From positions 4,724 through 68,723 of the forward strand of contig JAIPFV010000003.1 of NCBI GenBank assembly GCA_021736475.1: a stretch of 64,000 bases of DNA, written 5' to 3'. Origin of the DNA: Spirochaetia bacterium (GTDB lineage: Bacteria > Spirochaetota > Spirochaetia > DSM-16054 > Sediminispirochaetaceae). Below the pieces are notes generated by a model, which searched no databases, had not been told where the DNA came from, and worked only from the letters and a program-made list of their open reading frames with translations. The position numbers and the translations under genes were made by a program. Within the stretch, counting starts at the first letter, position 1; each line of letters opens with the position of its first letter. Of the stretch, positions 52,897-64,000 are shown piece after piece.

Positions 52897-53541
52897 ATGA
52901 GTAAAGAGAAAGAATTAGAAAGACTATTAAAGGAAAAAGAGAATTTACTCCATGAAGTCCATCACCGTGTTAAAAATCACATGGGTACAATCTCGAGTAT
53001 GATCTCCCTGCGTATAAACACCATTGATAACCCCCAAATACGTGAAGTTCTTGAAGATTTACAGGACAAAGTACACCTTATGCAAAATATCTATCAGTCC
53101 CTCTACACCCGGGAGGATGTAGGGACTATTAATATCTCCTCTTACTTACTACCTGTTATCCATGATATTCAGTATGCCTATATCGACAGCCGGTCGATAT
53201 CGTTAACCACCGATATAGAGGATATAGAAGTTAGTTCAAAACAGTCTTTACCTGTCGGCATAATAACAACGGAGCTCATAAGCAACTCAATTAAATACGC
53301 ATTTACTAAAAACGGAGAAGGGAAAATCCATGTATCAATTCACACAGAAAAAGAGAATGCCGATTTTCTCTGTATCGAAGTCTCCGACAACGGAAAAGGC
53401 ATGCCCCTCGAACTAGTAGAGAATAGAGAATACGGCTATGGGCTCACTCTGGTAGAATCCTATACAAAACAGTTTGACGGAATCATGAGTATACACAACG
53501 CCGGAGGAACAACTGTTCGTGTGATATTGGAGCTGGGATAG
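52897..53541 (+). CDS. Histidine kinase core only (HisKA_2 + HATPase); N-terminal sensor lost
   Basis: 'LLHEVHHRVKNHM' HisKA_2 H-box, 'ELISNSIKYAF', 'DNGKGMP', 'GYGLTLVE'. Upstream and in frame, 'METDGRIIRDEEGNIRDVIFSVRDARKKM' (PAS tail, 52804-52890) is separated by a TAG at 52891. Confidence 0.75.
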   Translation: MSKEKELERLLKEKENLLHEVHHRVKNHMGTISSMISLRINTIDNPQIREVLEDLQDKVHLMQNIYQSLYTREDVGTINISSYLLPVIHDIQYAYIDSRSISLTTDIEDIEVSSKQSLPVGIITTELISNSIKYAFTKNGEGKIHVSIHTEKENADFLCIEVSDNGKGMPLELVENREYGYGLTLVESYTKQFDGIMSIHNAGGTTVRVILELG

Positions 53542-53609
53542 TCTCTATGAAATGGATTTTCAATATATCCTCACCCCTTGCCGTCGGGAATTGAATGAAA
53601 ATTTTTCTA

Positions 53610-53638
53610 TTGACAAACAAAAATATTGTGAATATATT
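53610..53638 (+). promoter_or_regulatory. Sigma-70-type promoter candidate for the TA pair
   Basis: TTGACA (53610) - 17 nt - TATATT (53633), 40 nt upstream of the antitoxin ATG. Confidence 0.5.
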
Positions 53639-53677
53639 AGAATACATAAGAACATTATTTATTCTGGAGGCTATTCA

Positions 53678-53917
53678 ATGTCTAAAACCGTAACACTGCG
53701 ATTAGATGATAAAAGTTATGAAATTATTAAACAACATGCTCAAGCGGATAACCGTCCTTTATCCAACTATATTGAAACAGCTACATTAAAATATATTGAA
53801 GAAATTGACTACGTTGATGATTACGAAATGGAACAGATTTTAAATGATAAAGAATTATTAGAGTCTTTAAGAGACGGCAGTGCTGATGCTGCACATAAAA
53901 AAGGCCGATTTGTTTGA
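53678..53917 (+). CDS. Type II antitoxin (RHH/RelB-ParD-like)
   Basis: 79 aa; GGAGG RBS; 'KTVTLRLDDKSYEIIKQHAQADNRPLSNYIETA'; 4-nt overlap with the toxin gene. Confidence 0.65.
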   Translation: MSKTVTLRLDDKSYEIIKQHAQADNRPLSNYIETATLKYIEEIDYVDDYEMEQILNDKELLESLRDGSADAAHKKGRFV

Positions 53918-54192
53918 TGAATTACCGTATTTTTGAGACTGATTATTTCATTAAAAAAAAGAACAAATTTAATAAAAAACAAAAAGATATTATAGAACAC
54001 AGATTACATCTAAAAGTGTATCCACAACTCTCTGAGCAACCATATTTTGGTAACAATATCAAGAAACTAAAAAATTACCATCCGGAAACGTGGAGATATC
54101 GAATGGGCAATTTCAGGCTCTTTTATGAAATATCTGAAAAAGAAAAAATAATATTTATCACTACTATTAGTACAAGACAACGTGCATATTAG
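53914..54192 (+). CDS. Type II toxin, RelE/ParE superfamily
   Basis: 92 aa; 'WRYRMGNFRLFYEISEKEKIIFITTISTRQRAY' matches the RelE/StbE C-terminal pattern. Confidence 0.75.
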   Translation: MMNYRIFETDYFIKKKNKFNKKQKDIIEHRLHLKVYPQLSEQPYFGNNIKKLKNYHPETWRYRMGNFRLFYEISEKEKIIFITTISTRQRAY

Positions 54193-56307: not shown

Positions 56308-58038
56308 TCATACCCGTTTCGCGTAGAGCTCATTGTCGAAGGTTAAACGAAAGCTCAAACCGTTTCGTTTAGTCAGGGTAACCGAACCTCCGAGTTGATC
56401 CTTCACGAGACTGTAGACGATTTGAAGACCGAGATTGCCTTGAGTTATGGGATCGAAACCTTCCGGCACGCCTACGCCGTTGTCGCCGATCTCCAAAACC
56501 GGGACCATATTATCTACAAAAAAGAGCTTCACTTCGATAATTCCCTTTCTGCCGTTGGGAAAAGCGTGTTTGAAGGCGTTGCTTATGAGTTCGGTCACAA
56601 CCAGTCCGACAGGAACGGCGATGTCGATGAGTACGGGGATATCGTCCATGGAGTACCGGATAGAAACGTCTGTGAGTTCATCTGAATGAAAATCCTTTAT
56701 TATAAGAATGAGGCTTTCGAGATAGTCACGGAGATTGAGTTGCGAGAGGTCTTCTGATTCGTACAGCTTCTGGTGGGCCAGTGCCATCCCGAGGATTCGA
56801 TTTTCGATTTCCTTAAATGTCGTGCTAAGCTGTGGATCATTCACCTCGTGAGTTCTTAGTCGGAGCATGGAAGCGATAACTTGCATGTTGTTTTCCGTAC
56901 GGTGATAGAGCTCACGCAGCAGGATCTTTTTTTGAGACAGTTCATGTGCAATTTGTTCACTAGTCCGTTTTCGCTCCGTCACATCCTGCAGAGTCCCATG
57001 CAAGCCGGTAATTCGTCCATCCGTATCGTAGACCGGTTTGATGATCGTTGCAAACACGACTAATGTGCCGCCGGCGGTGGTGGCGCGGAGGTCTAACTCC
57101 TTGCTTTCCCCGCTTTCAAGAGCTTTGTCTGCATAGCTCCTGAAAAGCTTTGCCTGCTCAGGAGCGTAGTGGGTGGATGGTTCATCGAATCGAACCGGCT
57201 CCGATTCGGCATCCAATTCGTGAAGACGGTACATTTCATCTGACCAGGTGAAGGTGTCGCCGACGAGATCGTATTCCCAGCTGCCGATTTTTCCCACCTT
57301 TTGTGCCTCTTTGAGCTTGGCTTCACTTTTCCGCAGCTTACGGGACGTGTTCAGGGCGTCTCTCATGGCATCAAAGGCTTTCCGTCGTGATGCTTCCAGT
57401 TCCTGGTTGCTCTTCCGGAGATCGAGTGTGCGAAGTACAATCTTTTCCTCGAGGCCGGCTTGGTGTTCCAGTAATCTCCGTTCGAGATTTTTCTGGAATG
57501 AAATATCCGTCAACGTGAGGCTTACGAATAAATCCCGTTGGGTTCTCTTAGACGCCATATTATTGGGTGAATCGTAGACAAAGGGTGCCATCGAACAAAG
57601 ATAGTGCGTGTCATCGGACGAATTATCGTTAGAAGAAGAGTTAAACATCATGAGATCCTTCTGAACGTGTTCCGAAATACCTCGTTTCAGTAGGGAAGTA
57701 AATTGGGCGTTTACTCCCTCCGGAAGGATATCGATGATCTGTCGGCCCATCACTTTTTCTATGGGTACTCTTATCATCTCCGCGAATCTCCTGTTGCAAT
57801 AGATTAGTGTACCCCCCTCGGAAATAATAGCAGCCCCTTCATGCATCTGTTCGATGAGAATACGATAGGTTGTTTCCGCCGAGGAGAGGGAGTAGATTTG
57901 CTCTCCGACATCAGTCTTCACTACGATTGCATCTACTTCACCGGAGCGTATTGCCGCCAGTGTCTCTTCAAGTTCCTTAAGGCGGGTTCGGAGGATTTCG
58001 TTTTCCTCAGCGAGCCGACAGCCCTCTTCCGGCTTCAT
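56308..58038 (-). CDS. Cytoplasmic multi-PAS sensor histidine kinase (HisKA_2 type), kai-operon output kinase candidate
   Basis: 'AIRSGEVDAIVV' N-terminal coil, two PAS regions, coiled-coil linker, H-box 'LRELYHRTENNMQVIASML', 'ELISNAFKHAF', 'DNGVGVP'; starts 3 nt after the kaiB stop. Confidence 0.88.
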   Translation of the reverse strand: MKPEEGCRLAEENEILRTRLKELEETLAAIRSGEVDAIVVKTDVGEQIYSLSSAETTYRILIEQMHEGAAIISEGGTLIYCNRRFAEMIRVPIEKVMGRQIIDILPEGVNAQFTSLLKRGISEHVQKDLMMFNSSSNDNSSDDTHYLCSMAPFVYDSPNNMASKRTQRDLFVSLTLTDISFQKNLERRLLEHQAGLEEKIVLRTLDLRKSNQELEASRRKAFDAMRDALNTSRKLRKSEAKLKEAQKVGKIGSWEYDLVGDTFTWSDEMYRLHELDAESEPVRFDEPSTHYAPEQAKLFRSYADKALESGESKELDLRATTAGGTLVVFATIIKPVYDTDGRITGLHGTLQDVTERKRTSEQIAHELSQKKILLRELYHRTENNMQVIASMLRLRTHEVNDPQLSTTFKEIENRILGMALAHQKLYESEDLSQLNLRDYLESLILIIKDFHSDELTDVSIRYSMDDIPVLIDIAVPVGLVVTELISNAFKHAFPNGRKGIIEVKLFFVDNMVPVLEIGDNGVGVPEGFDPITQGNLGLQIVYSLVKDQLGGSVTLTKRNGLSFRLTFDNELYAKRV

Positions 58039-58040
58039 AG

Positions 58041-58388
58041 TTATGTGTCTCCGACCTTCTTCAGATCAAGTCCAATGAGCAGCTTGTCCTTGTCCGACAT
58101 GTCCCCGATGATCTTCCGCAATGGTTCCGGGAGTTTTTTAACTAGAGTCGGCACGGCAATTATCTGTTCTCCCTCCGCCAGGGTGGGTTTTTGATAAAGG
58201 TCTACCACGTGCAGATCGTAGCGGCCCCCCAGATGTTCGTCACATACGTTTTTTACGTTTTCTATCGCACGTTTTGACGTGGTAGACATTCCGGCCACGT
58301 ATAGGCGTAAGACATAGTTAGAGGCAGTGGATTCTGAAGATACGAGGGCCTCATACTCCTCAGTGTTCATTTCATCATTGTTATGCAT
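58041..58388 (-). CDS. kaiB: Circadian clock protein KaiB homologue (copy 2)
   Basis: '[85 protein letters not shown]'. Confidence 0.9.
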
Positions 58389-58722
58389 CTGCTGCCTCTT
58401 GTGTAAGGGGTTGTATGTCTAGTCCCACTAGTACTTTCTCCTCGTTCGACAGGTCGCCGATGATCTTCTTGACCGGTTCCGGCAGCTGGCGTATCAGCGT
58501 AGGTACGGCGAGAATTTGGTCACCCTTGGCGAGTGTCGGGTTCTTGATGAGGTCGATGATTTTGATCTGGTATTTCCCCTTGAGGTGTCGTTCACAGATC
58601 TGCTTCAAATTGCGGAACGCAGCAATCGATTTCGGGGATTGTCCGGCAACGTACAACTTCAGAATCCAGATGTCATCGCTATGTGCTGCATGGTTGTGCT
58701 CTTGTGAGAATGTGTCGGACAT
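58381..58722 (-). CDS. kaiB: Circadian clock protein KaiB homologue (copy 1)
   Basis: '[85 protein letters not shown]'; 8-nt overlap with copy 2. Confidence 0.9.
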
Positions 58723-58725
58723 ATG

Positions 58726-59637
58726 CTACTCCCCTATGCCTTTTTTGCTTTCCAGCATGCCCTGCCGCCGTAGCTGGGTTTGTTCGAACTGCCGGGTGAG
58801 TTCATCGATCTCGTTCTGCGTCTCTATTTCATCGGCTTTCATTTGTATCTGGGTGAGCTCGATCTGCGATTCCGCCGCCTTCTTCTTCCTCTGGAGCGTG
58901 TTTTTCAAACGATCGATCCTTGTTTTAAGCATTTCGGTCTCTTCCTCGTCAATTTGTTCCTGCACGTAGCGGGCCGAGCCGGTCAGAATTCCCTCCGTTC
59001 CCAGGTAGACTTCCTTGAGCTGGACTCCATGGGAAGTGATGAGGAACTCCCGTATTTGATTCGAATTGGCGATCCCACGGGATTTCAGCACGTACAGTCC
59101 CCGGTTTCGCTCTCCGTTTTCCTCGATGTCGCGAAGCAACAACCACGAATCCATGAGAGAGGAGATACCGACATCAGTCCCCGCTTCCGCTAGGGTTCCC
59201 GATGTAAGGGCGGTGAAGTAGCCGGTTACCGGCTTGGCCTTGAGAAAATCGATCAGTCGTGTCAGCATAGACTTGACTTCCAGTTCGTTCTCGTTGGACA
59301 GATACGCATTGATTGGATCGATGATCACCACCGAAGGTCTGTACTCGGAGGTAAGACGGTGAAGCATAGTGAGGTGTGATTCCAGACCGTATATGCTGAC
59401 CCGTTCAGAATGGAACTTCAGGAGCCCGGATTGCTCCCATGACGACAGATCGAGTCCGATCGAGGAAAGATTTCTCTTTACCTGGGTACCCGATTCCTCG
59501 AAGCTGAGGTACAGGACCTTCTCTCCTCGTCGGCAGGCAGCATCCGCTATGTGACCGCACAAGCTCGTTTTTCCGGTTCCGGCCGTACCCGAAACGAGTA
59601 TGCTGGTTCCGTGGTAGAATCCTTCCCCCCCGAGCAT
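58726..59637 (-). CDS. kaiC: KaiC-family ATPase, CII-like half only plus coiled-coil tail; apparently 5'-truncated
   Basis: 'LDEMLGGEGFYHGTSILVSGTAGTGKTS', 'VLYLSFEES', 'VVIIDPI', 'GISSLMDSWLLLRD', 'VLKSRGIANSNQIREFLITSHG'. The in-frame upstream sequence loses KaiC similarity within 5 codons and hits a TAA at 59701-59703. Confidence 0.8.
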   Translation of the reverse strand: MLGGEGFYHGTSILVSGTAGTGKTSLCGHIADAACRRGEKVLYLSFEESGTQVKRNLSSIGLDLSSWEQSGLLKFHSERVSIYGLESHLTMLHRLTSEYRPSVVIIDPINAYLSNENELEVKSMLTRLIDFLKAKPVTGYFTALTSGTLAEAGTDVGISSLMDSWLLLRDIEENGERNRGLYVLKSRGIANSNQIREFLITSHGVQLKEVYLGTEGILTGSARYVQEQIDEEETEMLKTRIDRLKNTLQRKKKAAESQIELTQIQMKADEIETQNEIDELTRQFEQTQLRRQGMLESKKGIGE

Positions 59638-59676
59638 CTCATCCAGAGTGTACCGCCACAGATGAATTGACCAAAA

Positions 59677-59734
59677 TCCACACCTGGTTTGACCAAATTT
59701 TTAACTTTTTTCCACACCTGGTTTGACCAAATTT
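59677..59734. repeat. Perfect 24-bp direct repeat x2 (10-bp spacer), plus a partial third copy at 59667-59677
   Basis: TCCACACCTGGTTTGACCAAATTT at 59677-59700 and 59711-59734; TTGACCAAAAT at 59667-59677. Confidence 0.9.
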
Positions 59735-59769
59735 CCGTGTTTTTCCCTGCCTAAGCTTGCTTTTTCGTG

Positions 59770-60858
59770 CTATCTCCATGAACCGTCAATATAGACTTTT
59801 CTCGAAACGGATCCGTCTCCCGGATTATACAGCAAGTGCTCTTGTCCGTTTATCGGATTGCTTGGGTATGTAGGAGAAACACCGTCCCAGTATGATAATG
59901 TTCCTACGATAGCGCCGTTGATTCTATGCGCTACAAGTTCAGCGTTTCTCGGCGATTGATGGTCTCTAATTTTTACAGACTCCATGTAGTTGATAGCCCC
60001 ATCCATGATCACTACATTGTCTAAAACCCCCTTAAAGTACCTATTATCAGCCCTTCCAAGGTAGTTTAATCCGTCTTGAGTGTTTATTGCTAACGAGAAG
60101 GGAGCCGACTCGACGGTGTCTATAAAAGAGATCCAATCAGTACCATTGTAATAAACTTGAATGAAGTGCCATATATTGTCATTAACTAATGTGGAATTAA
60201 TCTCATACAAACCCCCCAAATATCTCACCGATAACTTCCCGTCGATTATCTCAATTGATGTCTCGGATCCCAATTGTACAATAGGTCCGCCGTCAGAAGT
60301 TTTAACGGCGCAAGAAAAGCCTCTCTCTGCGTTAGATCTGAACCCGTAATCAGGCAAAGTCACGTAGTCGTATTCCCCGTTCATCTCTATTGCTTTATGA
60401 GTGATCCCTTGTACTCTTTTTAGGGATCCGACAGTCCCTGTGTATGTATCATAGCCGTCTATTAGCTGAGCGTTTGGAATGAGTTGAAGAGTGTATGAAA
60501 TGGATCTCACAATGGGTTGAACCCCGTTAGAAACAAAAGAAACGACAATATTCAGCGTGTGAGTTCCTGCTCCTATCGAGATTTCCGCCCACTCTCCTTC
60601 CGGTAATATAGGCCCTCCTATGCCAAGAGAAAGGTTTAACTTAGTGTTTAAATTCTTGTTGTAATCTACGTCGATTTTAACCCAAAGCGACTGCTCCGGA
60701 AGGACGGAAACTTGAATTGGACGTATCGCTCTTACTTCACGCTCAATAGAATGGTTAGGGAGGCCGTACAACCTGCCGGTGTTGCCCGATATTGATGCGT
60801 AGAATCTTGGAGACTCGTAACTAACTGATGCGCCATAGACGGCGTTACCAATTATCAC
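59770..60858 (-). CDS. LamG/concanavalin-A-like lectin-domain protein (tail-fibre/receptor-binding candidate)
   Basis: 'FSCAVKTSDGGPIVQLGSE..IEIIDGKLSV', 'DNIWHFIQVYYNGTD', 'YLGRADNRYFKGVLDNVVIM' follow the Laminin_G_3 pattern. Confidence 0.6.
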   Translation of the reverse strand: MIIGNAVYGASVSYESPRFYASISGNTGRLYGLPNHSIEREVRAIRPIQVSVLPEQSLWVKIDVDYNKNLNTKLNLSLGIGGPILPEGEWAEISIGAGTHTLNIVVSFVSNGVQPIVRSISYTLQLIPNAQLIDGYDTYTGTVGSLKRVQGITHKAIEMNGEYDYVTLPDYGFRSNAERGFSCAVKTSDGGPIVQLGSETSIEIIDGKLSVRYLGGLYEINSTLVNDNIWHFIQVYYNGTDWISFIDTVESAPFSLAINTQDGLNYLGRADNRYFKGVLDNVVIMDGAINYMESVKIRDHQSPRNAELVAHRINGAIVGTLSYWDGVSPTYPSNPINGQEHLLYNPGDGSVSRKVYIDGSWR

Positions 60859-61154
60859 TGTATAAGCTCCTCCTCCTCTGCTACGGTCATACCGATGCGG
60901 TCAAGGAGGTTTCCTGGCATTATTCCCCATACTTCTTGATAGTATTCACTGCCCTCTTCCGCGGACCCTTTGTCCACTACTCTGTGGGTGGCGTCGTTTA
61001 TACCGTCAGCCTCAGATTCCAGCTTTCCGGCAAGCACCCATCCCTCTCTGTTTTCAATTGCCCGTCGGATAAGGCTCTTCGTTTTTTCCGCGTTAATTTC
61101 CAGTGCATTGATAACATCTTGTTTACTGTTGATGTGTTTCGGATATCCTCTCAT
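60855..61154 (-). CDS. Hypothetical phage-region protein
   Basis: 99-aa ORF with a 4-nt overlap onto the LamG-like gene; no recognisable motif. Confidence 0.5.
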   Translation of the reverse strand: MRGYPKHINSKQDVINALEINAEKTKSLIRRAIENREGWVLAGKLESEADGINDATHRVVDKGSAEEGSEYYQEVWGIMPGNLLDRIGMTVAEEEELIQ

Positions 61155-61165
61155 TTCATTTCTCC

Positions 61166-61477
61166 TTAAGTAAATGTATAATATCTATCCACCTTTTGTA
61201 TTTTGGTTGCAAAAGGTAAGTATTCACGATATTTCCCGATCTGGCCGATCAAGACCTCAGACCCCGTAAACAGGACGCATGGATCATCATCTCCGTCGAT
61301 CGTAAACTGCAGCGTCATATATCTGCTTCTGCCCTCGTCCTTGTATCTACTCTCTTTGACCCGCGCATCATGAACGGTTATCTCGAGGTTTAAAACCTCG
61401 TCTATTCTCTTCTTTTTTCCCTCAATAGGCTTATCATCTCCGGCGAAGTCGGAGAATCTATGCACAGAGCCCATCAA
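61166..61477 (-). CDS. Hypothetical phage-region protein
   Basis: 103-aa ORF overlapping the RT 3' end by 20 nt; no recognisable motif; it does not look like a helical Avd. Confidence 0.5.
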   Translation of the reverse strand: MMGSVHRFSDFAGDDKPIEGKKKRIDEVLNLEITVHDARVKESRYKDEGRSRYMTLQFTIDGDDDPCVLFTGSEVLIGQIGKYREYLPFATKIQKVDRYYTFT

Positions 61478-62474
61478 TTTCCTCCTTTATTTCGTCAATA
61501 TGCATGGCTTGTCTTAGGTTGTAGGCATTAGCCCACCGAAGCCACCCCTCAGTAGAAGAGACAACAGATCTCGCTCTTTTTGCGTCTACTAACCCCTTAT
61601 TTATCTCCCATCTTAGGTGTGATATTCTTTTCTTCACTCTTCTTGCCGTGCTTTTTCTCACTAAAACATATTTTGCGAAATGCCTATATCCCACGAAATC
61701 TACACCCTGAGACACCGGATATACTCGATCCTTAGAAAGAGTAAGTTTGAGGCTTGATTTCAGAAACTCTCTTATCTGGTCCTGAAATTCTCGAAGAGCT
61801 TTTTTTGAATGAGAGAAAAGGAGAAAATCATCGTTGTAGCGTACATACCCTTCAGGCTTAAGGGTGTGGCGAACGTATGTGTCGAGTTCGTTGAGTACAA
61901 GATTCCCGATCCATTGGCTGGTCAGATTGCCGATAGGAATATTCCGGTCACCAGGAAATGATCGAATAATGTCCTCCATTATCCATAGGACCCATTGATC
62001 CTTTATCTTTCGTTCAACAATATTCATCGCCACGTCATGGCTGATCGATGGATAAAATTTCTTCACATCGCCCTGCAGACAATATCCGCCACGTCTCACA
62101 TTTTCCATTACCAATCTTGAGGCACTGTGCTGCCCTTTCCCTGGTCGGCATGCGTGAGAGACTGGATCGAACATCCGGTCCCAAATAGGAGCTATGACCG
62201 CCATTAGTGCATGCTGGACTATCCGATCAGGAAAGAACGGGAGAATAAATATTTCACGTTCTTTTGGCTCATACACCTTTTTACAGCGATACTCTGCGGT
62301 AGAAAAAGTTTGATCGGCCATCATACACCGAACTTCCTCCAGTGCAAGCTCTTTTCGGATTTCTACTTCTTGCACGGTGTTCTGCCAGGTCTTTCCTTTT
62401 TTTGCTCTACTATAGGCGAGCTCGATGTTCTCTTTGGTAATTATCTTTTCTTTGAGATTCCCATATCTTTTCAT
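61458..62474 (-). CDS. DGR reverse transcriptase
   Basis: Start 'MKRYGNLKEKIITKENIELAYSRAKKGK' (ATG 62474); 'FYPSISHD'; DGR-specific 'IGNLTSQWIGN' ((I/L)GxxxSQ); catalytic 'VRYNDDFLLF'. The ORF-track extension to 62888 is read-through of TR/VR. Confidence 0.9.
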   Translation of the reverse strand: MKRYGNLKEKIITKENIELAYSRAKKGKTWQNTVQEVEIRKELALEEVRCMMADQTFSTAEYRCKKVYEPKEREIFILPFFPDRIVQHALMAVIAPIWDRMFDPVSHACRPGKGQHSASRLVMENVRRGGYCLQGDVKKFYPSISHDVAMNIVERKIKDQWVLWIMEDIIRSFPGDRNIPIGNLTSQWIGNLVLNELDTYVRHTLKPEGYVRYNDDFLLFSHSKKALREFQDQIREFLKSSLKLTLSKDRVYPVSQGVDFVGYRHFAKYVLVRKSTARRVKKRISHLRWEINKGLVDAKRARSVVSSTEGWLRWANAYNLRQAMHIDEIKEEIDGLCA

Positions 62475-62601
62475 GATTTTTATAATGTGTTGCCGGACTT
62501 TCGCTATAACTACTAACCCGGCAACACCCCCGTTTTGTATTCGGCCATTCGGCCAGGCCGGTACAGCCAGCCGTAGGGTCAGCTCAGCTAACGCCTGCGT
62601 A

Positions 62602-62716
62602 TCCGTGACGCCCCGCCCCGCGTTATTCGCATTCAGATTCAGCGCGGCATTATTCGCATTCGCACTGCGTGAGCCGCAGTTCGCACTGTTGGACCAATTC
62701 ACGCTGAAGTGGGAGC
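62602..62716 (-). repeat. DGR template repeat (TR)
   Basis: 115-bp gapless alignment to 62793-62907; Asn(AAC)-rich in the coding frame ('NWSNSANCGSRSANANNAALNLNANNAGRGV'). Confidence 0.9.
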
Positions 62717-62767
62717 TATGTGCTGTACCAGCCTCTATATTCATACTAAATATCCTTGGGACCCGCT

Positions 62768-62784
62768 GCAGCGTCAAGCGCTGC
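62768..62784 (-). other. Hairpin just 3' of the VR (DGR target-recognition stem-loop candidate)
   Basis: The coding strand reads GCAGCG-CTTGA-CGCTGC; it overlaps the stop codon of the variable protein. Confidence 0.5.
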
Positions 62785-63994
62785 CCTTCGGCTCCGCGAC
62801 GCCCCGCCCCGCGCCATTCGCACTCAGAATCAGCGCGGCATGAGTCGCATGCGCACCGCGCGAGCCGCAGTACGCACCGTCGGACCAATTCACGCCGAAG
62901 CGGGAGCGGTTCGGCATCGAATAGTCTTGTCCAGCCACATTTACATCGTTCGCATCAAAGTTGTTGCCCCAGGAGGACCGAGAGTTGCTCGTAGAATCCC
63001 TGCCCCACTGATATTGCACACCGGTCATGTCCTCCATACCGATTAGAGATACGATTCTCTGGCCGTTTGTAGCAACGTGACCGCCGGTATTACCGGGATC
63101 AGCAGACCCGGAAATGTTTACCCCCTGCGGCGACCCGAGCGACATATTGACGTGCTCTTGTCGACTGATACTCATATAGCCGACGGCTCCGAGGTCCTGG
63201 TCAAACCTGTTTGCATGAAACTTTTCGAGACTGGTGCCATCTGCGGGATCTGCGCCATATACGCTCACCAGTTTTAATTGGGCTGCATCCCATGACGGTA
63301 GATAAATCATACCCCACCTATTATCTTTAGGTGAGAAAACAGCACCCTCTCTGGAGGCCCCTTCATGAGGTCGGTGTAGTATATCCTGCACGGAATGAGG
63401 AAGGATGTCTCCAACCAAAAACCCCTCAAGCCAGTGTTTTACATCCCCGTTACTGAGAGATTGCTCGGCTGCAAAGGCTTCATTAAAGTAGTCTTCATCC
63501 TTTCCTCTATTCTCGTATGGGTATACGTCGGTGCCGATATCCGCGCAAAGGCAGTGGAACTGGCCGACTTTGCGGGAATTGTCGGCGGTGTAGCCAGACG
63601 GGAATGTACTATTTGCCGATAAAATGAAGACCGGCACATATCCCGCTTCGGGCTCGCAAGCGTATATGTAAAAATCTTGTCCTGCTCTATTTGCCGGTGT
63701 CGTCCAGTCGGTTGTAAGGTCGTCCCAGGATGCGGTCTCGTTTAATCGGATCTCTATCTGTGACTCGAGCACGTACCCGTAGCCGTTTATATTAACCGTT
63801 AACTCGTCCGGAGAAACGAGGGTGTACCTGTCGGATCCAGTGTTGCCTTTTACTCTCCATCTAATGTTTCGCCCGTAATGGCCAGGTACGGATGCGGCGG
63901 CCAGTTTTCCGTTTATCGCTTTTTGAAAGTCCGCTACGGCCGCGTAGCTGTGATACAGCTCCACCCCTTCGTATGCCGCGTTAATTATCTGCAC
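62774..63994 (-). CDS. DGR variable (target) protein, Mtd-like receptor-binding protein with C-terminal CLec-type VR; possibly 5'-partial
   Basis: C-terminus 'GVNWSDGAYCGSRGAHATHAALILSANGAGRGV' is the diversified copy of the TR; the GTG start at 63994 has no upstream stop before the window end. Confidence 0.85.
   Translation of the reverse strand: MQIINAAYEGVELYHSYAAVADFQKAINGKLAAASVPGHYGRNIRWRVKGNTGSDRYTLVSPDELTVNINGYGYVLESQIEIRLNETASWDDLTTDWTTPANRAGQDFYIYACEPEAGYVPVFILSANSTFPSGYTADNSRKVGQFHCLCADIGTDVYPYENRGKDEDYFNEAFAAEQSLSNGDVKHWLEGFLVGDILPHSVQDILHRPHEGASREGAVFSPKDNRWGMIYLPSWDAAQLKLVSVYGADPADGTSLEKFHANRFDQDLGAVGYMSISRQEHVNMSLGSPQGVNISGSADPGNTGGHVATNGQRIVSLIGMEDMTGVQYQWGRDSTSNSRSSWGNNFDANDVNVAGQDYSMPNRSRFGVNWSDGAYCGSRGAHATHAALILSANGAGRGVAEPKGSA
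62793..62907 (-). repeat. DGR variable repeat (VR) at the 3' end of the target gene
   Basis: 15 mismatches to the TR, all at TR coding-strand adenines; shared GC-rich 3' block GGGGCGGGGCGTC (IMH-like). Confidence 0.9.
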
Positions 63995-64000
63995 TTGAGT

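What the first reader, a model, noticed from the sequence alone, without database searches (positions are those of the whole stretch)
59635..59769. kaiC appears cut in half at the edge of a phage-like element; the junction carries TGT... and phased 24-bp direct repeats
**Breakpoint.** Reading kaiC upstream from 'LDEMLGG', similarity to KaiC is gone within about 5 codons (in-frame translation ...FWSIHLWRYT). An in-frame TAA lies at 59701-59703. No CI domain exists in the window, although a two-kaiB operon implies a full-length kaiC.

**Junction sequence.** From about 59649 the plus strand reads TGTACCGCCACAGATGAATTGACCAAAATCCACACCTGGTTTGACCAAATTT-10 nt-TCCACACCTGGTTTGACCAAATTT. That is a TG terminus followed by three phased copies of a TTGACCAAA-containing site, two of them perfect 24-mers at 34-bp spacing.

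**Interpretation.** This resembles the multi-site transposase-binding ends of Mu-like transposable phages or Tn7/Tn552-class elements. Arm-type integrase sites of a temperate phage are the alternative. The adjacent genes form a tail-fibre/DGR module, as found at the right end of such phages. The rest of kaiC should lie beyond the far end of the element.
Basis: partly seen in the sequence, partly recalled or inferred. Interest (0 to 1): 0.7.

Follow-up and report, generated by a model that had tools for sequence, protein, structure and literature searches.

The report
Mu-like prophage end splitting kaiC
This spot is the right-hand tip of a Mu-type "jumping" phage that has landed in the middle of a bacterial timer gene (kaiC), so only the gene's second half remains next to it; this is a well-documented but ordinary kind of gene disruption.

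Summary
The 303-aa ORF at 58726-59637(-) is only the CII domain plus coiled-coil tail of a KaiC2-type KaiC. It is about 60% identical to residues 258-534 of Rhodobacter KaiC. Homology stops at 59646, and no CI domain is found anywhere in the window or in the remaining 3.4 kb of contig beyond its right end.

From 59649 the plus strand reads 5'-TGTACCGCC..., followed by three same-orientation sites (CCACA-N6-TTGACCA) at +8, +30 and +64. Two of them lie inside perfect 24-mers.

Related phages from other samples settle the interpretation. One has a tail protein J 81% identical to this phage's. They carry the same 121-125 nt non-coding end, with the terminal 28 nt 28/28 or 26/28 identical although the adjacent gene is only 60% identical. 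They stop at the same nucleotide, and there they join different flanking DNA.

That relative has a Mu-type portal and a Mu F protein. More distant portal relatives carry MuA-like transposase and Gam.

So this is the attR end of a DGR-carrying, Mu-like transposable siphophage inserted in kaiC. In one sample the host contig breaks exactly at the junction, which suggests the insertion is polymorphic.

Not seen: the transposase of this phage, its other end, the target duplication, and the CI half of kaiC.

It is a new member of a known kind, of modest interest.

The parts
58726..59646 (-). kaiC remnant: CII domain plus C-terminal coiled-coil tail. The ORF is called from the conserved Met at 59637; KaiC homology runs up to the Leu codon at 59646-59644.
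   Evidence: Pfam KaiC E = 2.3e-30. Aligns to residues 258-534 of Rhodobacter KaiC 8dba. tblastn homology ends at 59646.
59644..59648 (.). Host bases directly abutting the phage terminus (CAGAG on the plus strand). This is the predicted copy of a 5-bp target duplication if insertion was Mu-like.
   Evidence: Inference only. Host-side Logan contig L004 begins exactly at 59648.
59649..59769 (-). Non-coding right end (attR) of the prophage, 121 nt, from the terminal 5'-TG (59649-59650) to the stop codon of the last phage gene.
   Evidence: Aligns without gaps to the ends of related phage contigs L041, L043 and L042. Terminal 28 nt are 28/28 (L043) and 26/28 (L041) identical, against 60% DNA identity in the adjacent gene.
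59656..59673 (+). Terminal site R1: CCACAGATGAATTGACCA.
   Evidence: Motif CCACA-N6-(T/A)TGAC(C/T)A at +8 from the terminus in the window, L043 and L041.
59678..59695 (+). Site R2: CCACACCTGGTTTGACCA, inside the first perfect 24-mer (59677-59700). It starts 22 nt after R1.
59712..59729 (+). Site R3: CCACACCTGGTTTGACCA, inside the second perfect 24-mer (59711-59734). It starts 34 nt after R2.
   Evidence: Relative L042 carries one more 34-nt unit.
59770..60858 (-). Last phage gene: a 362-aa LamG/concanavalin-like putative tail-fibre protein.
   Evidence: Pfam Laminin_G_3. Its only homologues are in related phage contigs, always as the last gene before the end.
60855..61477 (-). Two small phage ORFs (99 aa and about 102 aa) of unknown function, between RT and LamG.
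   Evidence: Gene tables. Syntenic in L041 and L042.
61458..62744 (-). DGR reverse transcriptase gene. The called ORF includes the template repeat (TR, about 62602-62716) at its 5' end.
   Evidence: Pfam RVT_1; PHROG reverse transcriptase E = 5.5e-110. TR/VR alignment.
62774..64000 (-). Mtd-like DGR target (tail-fibre) gene with its variable repeat (VR, about 62793-62907) at the 3' end. The gene starts beyond the window, and the J gene lies further on.
   Evidence: Pfam mtd_2nd. 20 VR/TR differences, all at TR adenines.
56308..58722 (-). Remainder of the host operon downstream of the kaiC remnant: kaiB (58381-58722), kaiB (58041-58388) and a PAS/HisKA_2 histidine kinase (56308-58038).
   Evidence: Pfam KaiB E = 2e-27 and 6e-27; HisKA_2, PAS and HATPase_c.

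Best explanation
**What it is.** Position 59649 is the right-hand terminus (attR) of a Mu-like transposable siphophage that carries a diversity-generating retroelement (DGR). The phage inserted by DDE-type transposition into a KaiC2-type kaiC gene, one codon before the LDEM motif that opens the CII domain.

**How the end works.**
- The 121-nt non-coding end carries the cleavage dinucleotide (5'-TG on the window's plus strand, ...CA-3' on the phage's coding strand).
- It also carries three same-orientation bipartite sites (CCACA-N6-TTGAC) at +8, +30 and +64. These are most likely the binding sites from which the phage transposase assembles on this end.

**Consequence for the host.**
- Only the CII domain and coiled-coil tail of KaiC, two kaiB genes and a histidine kinase remain on this side.
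- Without CI, the domain to which KaiB binds in the Rhodobacter system, the timer is presumably inactivated.
- The phage's late genes read toward the operon. No terminator-like site was found between them, so read-through into the kaiC remnant and kaiB genes is possible.

**Shown:** the truncation, the conserved terminus, the different flanks in relatives, and the Mu-type head genes in the close relative.

**Inferred:** transposase binding, the transposition mechanism, loss of clock function, and read-through.
For: 1. **CII only.** KaiC homology is confined to CII and stops at 59646. No CI domain is found in the window or in the 3.4 kb of contig beyond its right end. The 10.5 kb of contig left of the window was not examined.
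2. **The junction is reproducible.** It is seen in an independent Logan assembly: L005 (SRR12088347) runs from kaiC across 59648/59649 to 59692.
3. **The junction looks polymorphic.** In SRR12088346 the host contig L004 starts exactly at 59648. That is what a k = 31 graph gives when the host sequence has two continuations there.
4. **Same terminus, different flanks.** Related phages end at the same nucleotide. L041 stops at ...GGCGGTACA+C. L043 reads ...GGCGGTACA followed by 30 nt of unrelated DNA (GTGATCGATG...). The window reads ...GGCGGTACA followed by kaiC.
5. **The terminus is under selection.** The terminal 28 nt are 28/28 and 26/28 identical, while the neighbouring LamG gene is 60% identical at DNA level. 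The three sites keep offsets +8, +30 and +64. Conserved CCACA and TGAC halves flank hexamers that differ between the two phage lineages.
6. **Mu-type head genes in the close relative.** The relative with J 81% identical has Portal_Mu (E = 1.3e-72) and Phage_Mu_F above Pfam thresholds. Its portal's best cultured matches are transposable phages such as KS10, phiE255 and RcapMu.
7. **Transposase in the wider clade.** IMG/VR phages with 40-51% portal identity carry RcapMu-A-like transposase and Gam 8-10 kb upstream of the portal.
8. **Same geometry as RcapMu.** In RcapMu the last tail gene is followed by about 120 nt and then the terminus ...GCGCGCTACA-3'. Two adjacent 22-24-nt direct repeats there are annotated attR1 and attR2.
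9. **Literature.** TG-CA ends and a 5/6-bp duplication are the recognised marks of Mu- and B3-like prophages. Ends are identified by aligning related prophages that have distinct flanks (PMC8705779).
Against: - No transposase, MuB, repressor or left end has been seen for this phage or for its 81% relative. Their contigs stop before the early region.
- The other junction, the target-site duplication and the CI half of kaiC were not found. The MAG is not in the searchable genome collection.
- Mu-type portal and F proteins also occur in some non-transposing phages.
- A more distant relative (L007, Mtd 59% identical) has lysis genes after its LamG gene. The tail/DGR module is therefore mosaic, and gene order is not diagnostic.
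- Binding of a transposase to the three sites is inferred from conservation, not shown.
- Contig breaks at 59692 and 59714, inside the repeat array, are not explained.
Confidence: 0.8

Rival explanations
1. The junction is an attR made by a site-specific recombinase. The three repeats would be arm-type sites of a tyrosine integrase, or the terminal site would be half of a serine-integrase attP. kaiC would be the dedicated attachment site.
For: - Three phased direct repeats next to a junction also fit arm-type sites such as lambda P'1-P'3 (own knowledge).
- Graph breaks exactly at the junction would also arise from mixtures of attP, attB and attR.
- Prophages that integrate inside genes are known.
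Against: - Closely related phage ends abut different sequences at the same nucleotide: kaiC in the window; GTGATCGATG... in L043; C in L041 against G in L043, although those two are 92% identical in the LamG gene.
- No KaiC-like coding is left in the bases beyond 59646, so any shared core would be at most about 3 nt.
- The head genes of the relative are Mu-type.
Confidence: 0.07
2. The TG end and repeats belong to a separate non-phage transposon (Tn7/Tn552/Tn402-like) that sits between kaiC and an unrelated prophage, or that carries phage genes as cargo.
For: - TGT termini followed by several roughly 20-bp transposase sites are typical of Tn7-like and Tn552-like elements (own knowledge).
- B3-type transposable phages themselves use Tn552-family transposases (PMC8705779).
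Against: - The 121-125-nt end always follows the LamG tail gene directly in four related phage contigs. It co-varies with the phage.
- There is no room for another element.
- A search of the plus-strand stretch 59640-59775 against the cultured-phage collection found only short, non-significant hits. The plasmid collection was not searched.
Confidence: 0.05
3. The junction is not an insertion: it is either an assembly chimera, or a deletion that fused a prophage to the middle of kaiC.
For: - Only the MAG contig covers 59693-59713.
- Logan contigs stop at 59692 and 59714.
- Mu-type phages are known to cause adjacent deletions, so the CI half may be gone rather than displaced (own knowledge).
Against: - The kaiC|TGTACC joint is present in an independent k = 31 assembly of another run (L005).
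- The phage side ends at the nucleotide that is the conserved terminus in relatives. A random deletion or misjoin would not hit that position.
- A 24-nt repeat is too short to cause a misjoin, and the MAG shows two copies with a unique spacer.
Confidence: 0.05
4. The gene is a natural single-domain (CII-only) KaiC-like protein with this 5' end, not a truncated kaiC.
For: The 120 best database homologues are all 220-330 aa. In an alignment of 16 of them from contigs of 8 kb or more, 15 start at the same MLGG.
Against: - Where context was read, a CI-coding stretch lies immediately upstream and the split is a frameshift in the CI-CII linker (L012, L013, L014-16). The CII frame stays open through ...TGIxRLDxM.
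- Other cases are contig ends (L017/L018).
- In the window the upstream sequence is the phage end, not a linker.
- Full-length 560-585-aa homologues top the unbiased search.
Confidence: 0.03

Closest known systems
Rhodobacter phage RcapMu and other Mu-like transposable siphoviruses (Mu, B3/D3112, BcepMu/KS10)
   Same: - Lambda-J-type tail genes at the right end.
- The last gene is followed by about 120 nt of non-coding DNA, then a ...TACA-3' terminus.
- Adjacent 22-24-nt direct repeats lie at the terminus (RcapMu attR1/attR2).
- The close relative has a Mu-type portal and F protein.
- The end is fused to different host sequences in different assemblies.
   Different: - Protein identities are low: J 26% and portal about 30% to RcapMu.
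- The repeat sequence is unrelated (CCACA-N6-TTGAC).
- The third site is spaced by 34 nt, and the number of 34-nt units varies among relatives.
- This phage carries a DGR.
- The transposase, the left end and the target duplication were not seen.
DGR-carrying transposable phages (hankyphage of Bacteroides; Mushuvirus of Faecalibacterium)
   Same: A temperate, transposable phage that also carries a DGR acting on a tail-fibre-like gene. Hankyphage is called transposable in the abstract of PMC12135933. PMC5883640 came up in the same search on DGR, Mu-like and transposable, but neither paper was read further.
   Different: - Different hosts and no detectable close sequence relationship.
- No match in the cultured-phage collection or IMG/VR to the end sequence.
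KaiC2-type KaiBC hourglass timer of Rhodobacter sphaeroides (PDB 8DBA, 8FWJ)
   Same: - The CII domain is about 60% identical.
- The Ser-Ser pair aligns with the phosphosites.
- It has the roughly 50-aa coiled-coil C-terminal extension (PMC10076222).
- kaiB genes and a histidine kinase lie downstream.
   Different: - The whole CI domain is missing here. CI is where KaiB binds in the Rhodobacter complex.
- There are two kaiB genes instead of one.
Gene-splitting prophages that act as regulatory switches (SPbeta in spsM, skin in sigK, A118 in comK)
   Same: A prophage sits inside a host regulatory gene and splits it in two.
   Different: Those elements use site-specific recombinases and excise precisely to restore the gene. 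Here the end behaves like a transposon end with varied targets, and Mu-type phages do not normally excise precisely (own knowledge).

Membership tests
Mu-like transposable phages (saltoviruses) | Genome termini 5'-TG...CA-3' | tested here: met
   - One end only. The window's plus strand starts TGTACC at 59649.
- The same terminus is found in L043 and L041.
- The TG-CA rule is stated in PMC8705779.
Mu-like transposable phages (saltoviruses) | Several transposase-binding repeats within about 100 bp of each end | tested here: inconclusive
   - Three same-orientation sites at +8, +30 and +64 are conserved in position across two phage lineages.
- The layout matches RcapMu attR1/attR2.
- Protein binding was not tested.
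Mu-like transposable phages (saltoviruses) | Insertion at many different host sites (the end is joined to unrelated flanks) | tested here: met
   The identical terminus abuts kaiC (window), GTGATCGATGTACG... (L043) and C... (L041).
Mu-like transposable phages (saltoviruses) | DDE transposase (MuA or B3/Tn552 type) with an ATPase partner | not testable with these tools
   - The early region is not on any contig I could read for this phage or its 81% relative.
- Phages with 40-51% portal identity do carry RcapMu-A-like transposase and Gam.
Mu-like transposable phages (saltoviruses) | 5- or 6-bp target-site duplication flanking the prophage | not testable with these tools
   The other end is not in the contig. 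The MAG is not in genome contigs.
Mu-like transposable phages (saltoviruses) | Mu-type head module (portal PF06074, gpF PF04233) | tested here: met
   - Met in the close relative L045, whose J is 81% identical: Portal_Mu E = 1.3e-72 and Phage_Mu_F at 32 bits, above the 29.6-bit cutoff.
- The head genes of the window's own phage are not on the contig.
KaiC (two-domain clock ATPase, kaiC2 subgroup) | Tandem CI and CII RecA-like domains in one polypeptide | tested here: not met
   Only CII is present. It is therefore a truncated remnant, not an intact member.
KaiC (two-domain clock ATPase, kaiC2 subgroup) | Roughly 50-aa C-terminal coiled-coil extension, a Ser-Ser phosphosite pair, and an adjacent kaiB | tested here: met
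   - The alignment to 8dba runs through residue 534 and includes GISSLMD against GLSSLMD.
- Two kaiB genes follow.
- The subgroup features are described in PMC10076222.
Diversity-generating retroelement | RT plus a template/variable repeat pair that differs only at template adenines, with VR at the 3' end of a target gene | tested here: met
   - RT.
- VR of about 115 nt in the Mtd-like gene against TR upstream of RT: 20 differences, all A in TR.
- Avd was not identified in the window. A 95-aa ORF occupies that position in L041.
Integrase-type prophage att site with arm-type repeats | The same attB flank and a shared core sequence in related lysogens | tested here: not met
   The flanks differ from the first base after the terminus among related phages.

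The most novel reading that the evidence does not exclude
The insertion is a live polymorphism. An actively transposing, DGR-carrying Mu-like phage has knocked out the KaiBC timer in part of a natural population. The leftover CII-plus-coiled-coil protein may be driven by read-through from the phage late operon and co-expressed with two KaiBs and the kinase. It could then act as a new or dominant-negative signalling module rather than dead DNA.
Probability: 0.1. Interest if true: 0.45.

Novelty: new member of a known kind. Interest (0 to 1): 0.28.

Why it matters
- **Annotation.** The 303-aa "KaiC" in this MAG should be annotated as a phage-disrupted pseudogene fragment, not as a single-domain clock protein. 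The contig edge is a prophage.
- **A new phage lineage.** The work defines the right-end architecture of an uncultured lineage of Mu-like siphophages that carry a DGR: terminus TGTACCGCCACA and three CCACA-N6-TTGAC sites at fixed offsets. That signature can be used to find their insertion sites in metagenomes.
- **Biology.** This is one more example of a transposable phage inactivating a host regulatory operon. It does not change what is known about transposition, DGRs or Kai timers.

Tried and rejected
- **Homologue search with the full ORF.** The search for homologous proteins with the full 303-aa ORF timed out twice. A 187-aa core worked.
- **Looking for the other end.** I searched public genomes and metagenomes with a two-site pattern. 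The MAG is not in genome contigs. The 2 + 19 hits are unrelated tandem repeats or coding sequence.
- **Looking for an intact allele.** An exact 36-mer from the kaiC side found nothing in JGI metagenomes.
- **Phage end in IMG/VR.** The exact 24-mer and the conserved terminal 24-mer found nothing in IMG/VR.
- **Phage end in cultured phages.** blastn of the plus-strand stretch 59640-59775 found nothing meaningful in the cultured-phage collection.
- **LamG and J as IMG/VR queries.** Neither found a close relative.
- **Walking to the neighbouring contig.** A search with the first 100 aa of the contig-end ORF failed.
- **Left 10.5 kb of the contig.** A look-up failed because the ORF start is not on record.
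- **Single-domain KaiC family.** Considered and rejected after reading contexts.
- **Perfect 65-nt terminal inverted repeat.** I considered this as the cause of the contig breaks. It was rejected because unitig ends would then lie 30 nt inside the repeat.
- **Copy-number change of the 34-nt unit.** This also does not predict the breaks at 59692 and 59714.
- **Papers.** No paper mentions the assembly or the runs.
Full report
**Where the window comes from.** The window is bases 10552-74551 of contig JAIPGH010000001.1 (77,933 bp) of the metagenome-assembled genome GCA_021736245.1. The contig runs only 3.4 kb past the window's right end. It stops inside a lambda-J-like tail gene, so the phage-like element is incomplete in the assembly. 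I could not establish the organism: no paper mentions the assembly or its runs, and names are withheld for window proteins.

**Checking the observation.**
- The plus strand from 59649 reads TGTACCGCCACAGATGAATTGACCAAAATCCACACCTGGTTTGACCAAATTT, then TTAACTTTTT, then TCCACACCTGGTTTGACCAAATTT.
- The 24-mer occurs exactly twice in 64 kb, at 59677 and 59711. None appeared in 100 shuffles, even allowing three mismatches.
- TTGACCAAA occurs three times in the window, all within 65 bp here, against 0.61 expected per window.
- On the minus strand the kaiC frame reads ...FWSIHLWRYT-LDEMLGG, with an in-frame stop at 59701-59703.

**The kaiC piece is a CII half.**
- The 303-aa ORF (58726-59637, minus strand) matches Pfam KaiC.
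- It aligns at about 60% identity to residues 258-534 of the 568-aa Rhodobacter sphaeroides KaiC. That is the CII domain and the coiled-coil extension typical of the kaiC2 subgroup: 264.6 bits to CII against 37.8 bits to CI (PMC10076222).
- A full-length homologue used in tblastn hits only 59646-58822, starting at its residue 263. A CI query from a closer relative (L014) hits nothing in the window or in the contig beyond it.
- Two kaiB genes and a PAS/HisKA_2 kinase follow on the same strand.
- In the Rhodobacter complex KaiB binds the CI domain. A CII-only product is therefore unlikely to work as a timer. This is an inference.

**A trap: apparent single-domain relatives.**
- The 120 best database homologues of the CII core are all 220-330 aa. 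In an alignment of 16 of them from contigs of 8 kb or more, 15 start at the same MLGG. That would have refuted the truncation idea.
- Reading their contexts shows otherwise. In L012, L013 and L014-16 a CI-coding stretch lies directly upstream (called as an ORF in L012 and L014-16). The CII frame stays open through ...TGIxRLDxM, and the two are separated by a one-base frameshift in the CI-CII linker.
- In L017 and L018 the contig simply starts one base before the ATG.
- The unbiased HMMER search puts 566-584-aa two-domain proteins on top.
- So the "short KaiC" family is a product of first-ATG gene calling plus the search tool's preference for short targets. Full-length kaiC followed by kaiB-kaiB is the normal state, as in L014.

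**The junction is real and probably polymorphic.**
- Two Logan assemblies (k = 31, from my own knowledge of that resource) of runs from the same study carry this locus.
- In SRR12088347, contig L005 runs from the host side straight across 59648/59649 into the phage end, up to 59692. The kaiC|TGTACC joint therefore does not depend on the MAG assembler.
- In SRR12088346, the 19-kb host contig L004 begins exactly at 59648. In a de Bruijn graph, a long contig that ends at the last base shared by two paths indicates two continuations. Most simply these are an occupied and an empty site.
- The phage-side contig L002 stops at 59714. The breaks at 59692 and 59714 would both fit an 81-nt block (59663-59743) that exists in a second context. 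I could not resolve what that context is.

**Comparative evidence for a genome terminus.** The last phage gene encodes a LamG-like protein (59770-60858). It has one homologue cluster in 5.8 billion proteins (56% identity). Its members sit on four other contigs. In all four the gene is the last one, and the contig runs on only 63-155 nt past its stop. In the three longer ones it is followed by a non-coding stretch that aligns without gaps to window 59649-59769.

| Contig or window | Sequence at the terminus |
|---|---|
| L041 | ...GTGGCGGTACA+C, then the contig ends |
| L043 | ...GTGGCGGTACA, then 30 nt (k-1) of unrelated DNA, GTGATCGATGTACG... |
| window | ...GTGGCGGTACA, then CTCTGGATGAG (kaiC) |

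- Three assemblies thus share the terminus to the nucleotide but have different flanks.
- The terminal 28 nt are 28/28 (L043) and 26/28 (L041) identical to the window, whereas the LamG gene next door is 60% identical at DNA level.
- The three sites lie at +8, +30 and +64 in every phage. Their CCACA and (T/A)TGAC halves are constant.
- The central hexamers and 3' flanks differ between the two lineages. They are identical (window) or similar (the L041/L043 lineage) between the two inner sites of one phage. This is the pattern expected of binding sites that evolve together with their protein.
- L042 has an extra 34-nt unit.

**What kind of phage.**
- The relative on L043/L045 has a J protein 81% identical to the window's over 1,052 residues.
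- Upstream it encodes a large terminase, a Mu-type portal (PF06074, E = 1.3e-72), a Mu F-like protein (above the Pfam cutoff), a lambda-E-type capsid, a tape-measure protein, DUF1833, NlpC/P60, J, Mtd and LamG.
- The portal's best cultured matches are transposable phages: KS10, phiE255, RR1-B and RcapMu.
- IMG/VR phages with 40-51% portal identity carry homologues of RcapMu transposase A and Gam 8-10 kb upstream of the portal.
- Among the best J matches in cultured phages (26-33% identity) are RcapMu and close relatives of it such as RcWaterboi.
- RcapMu's annotated right end has the same geometry. The last tail gene is followed by about 120 nt and the terminus ...GCGCGCTACA-3'. Its attR1 and attR2 are adjacent 24- and 22-nt direct repeats at the tip. 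Its left end starts TGTAGGGG.
- TG-CA ends and a 5/6-bp duplication are the accepted marks of such prophages. Aligning related prophages that have distinct flanks is the accepted way to find their ends (PMC8705779).

**Mechanism proposed.**
- A Mu-like transposable siphophage inserted by DDE transposition into kaiC, one codon before LDEM.
- The three sites are the right-end transposase-binding sites and the TG/CA is the cleavage point.
- The prophage's late genes (J, Mtd with VR, TR-RT, two small ORFs, LamG) are on the same strand as the kaiC remnant, kaiB, kaiB and the kinase, and read toward them.
- No promoter-like or terminator-like site was found in 59400-60000. Expression of the remnant operon would therefore depend on read-through. 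This is an inference.
- The host genes on this side are intact, and the junction looks polymorphic. Both suggest a recent event.

**Rivals.**
- *Integrase att site.* This is disfavoured by the different flanks and by the absence of any shared core. KaiC-like coding stops at 59646.
- *A separate Tn7/Tn552-like transposon.* This is disfavoured because the end always follows the LamG gene and co-varies with the phage.
- *Chimera or random deletion.* This is disfavoured by the independent assembly and by the breakpoint falling on the conserved terminus. A Mu-mediated adjacent deletion remains possible, so the CI half need not lie at the far end.

**Limits.** I did not see this phage's transposase, left end or target duplication, or the CI half of kaiC.

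**Novelty.** Transposable phages that carry DGRs are already described: hankyphage, and phages of Faecalibacterium. Gene disruption by Mu-type phages is classical. This is a new, uncultured member of a known kind with a cleanly defined end. Interest is modest.

Noticed in passing
window 62587-62917 (minus strand): A bona fide DGR. The variable repeat lies at the 3' end of the Mtd-like gene and the template repeat just upstream of the RT. Over about 115 nt there are 20 differences, all at template adenines. The called RT ORF (428 aa) therefore includes the TR as a spurious N-terminal extension.
   Followed up: yes
L012 7900-8000; L013 7930-8000; L014/L015/L016 4940-5000: In three unrelated relatives, kaiC carries a one-base frameshift in the same stretch of about 25 codons in the CI-CII linker, so gene callers call CII (and in L012 and L014-16 also CI) as a separate ORF. 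In L014-16 the same frameshift is present in three assemblies. This is probably selection bias plus sequencing errors or pseudogenes, but a recoding site is not excluded.
   Followed up: partly
L017 1-3 and L018 1-3: Two assemblies (JGI 3300030399 and ENA ERZ27250257) both start their contig one base before the MLGG ATG of a KaiC CII. That is another assembly break at the CI-CII boundary of a kaiC. The cause is unknown.
   Followed up: no
window 59692/59693 and 59713/59714: Logan contigs L005 and L002 end inside the repeat array. The ends fit an 81-nt block (59663-59743) that is present in a second context in the samples. That context could be the other phage end or a second phage variant. Relative L041 differs from the window exactly at 59661-59662.
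   Followed up: partly
L042 11130-11220 versus L041 4590-4678: The number of 34-nt repeat units at the phage end varies among close relatives. L042 has at least three inner units and its contig breaks inside them.
   Followed up: partly
L043 9625-10004 (same contig as L045): This relative lacks the Avd-like ORF, TR, RT and the 101-aa ORF between Mtd and the 100-aa gene. It is a DGR-less variant of the same tail module.
   Followed up: no
window 53552-54192: A ParE-toxin / DUF6290 antitoxin pair lies about 5.5 kb from the kaiBC operon. A second HisKA_2 kinase is at 52897-53541.
   Followed up: no
L007 7366-9525: A more distant relative (Mtd 59%, LamG 30% identical) continues after its LamG gene with a lipase-like gene and an amidase endolysin instead of ending. 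The J-DGR-LamG module is therefore shared between phages with different genome layouts.
   Followed up: partly
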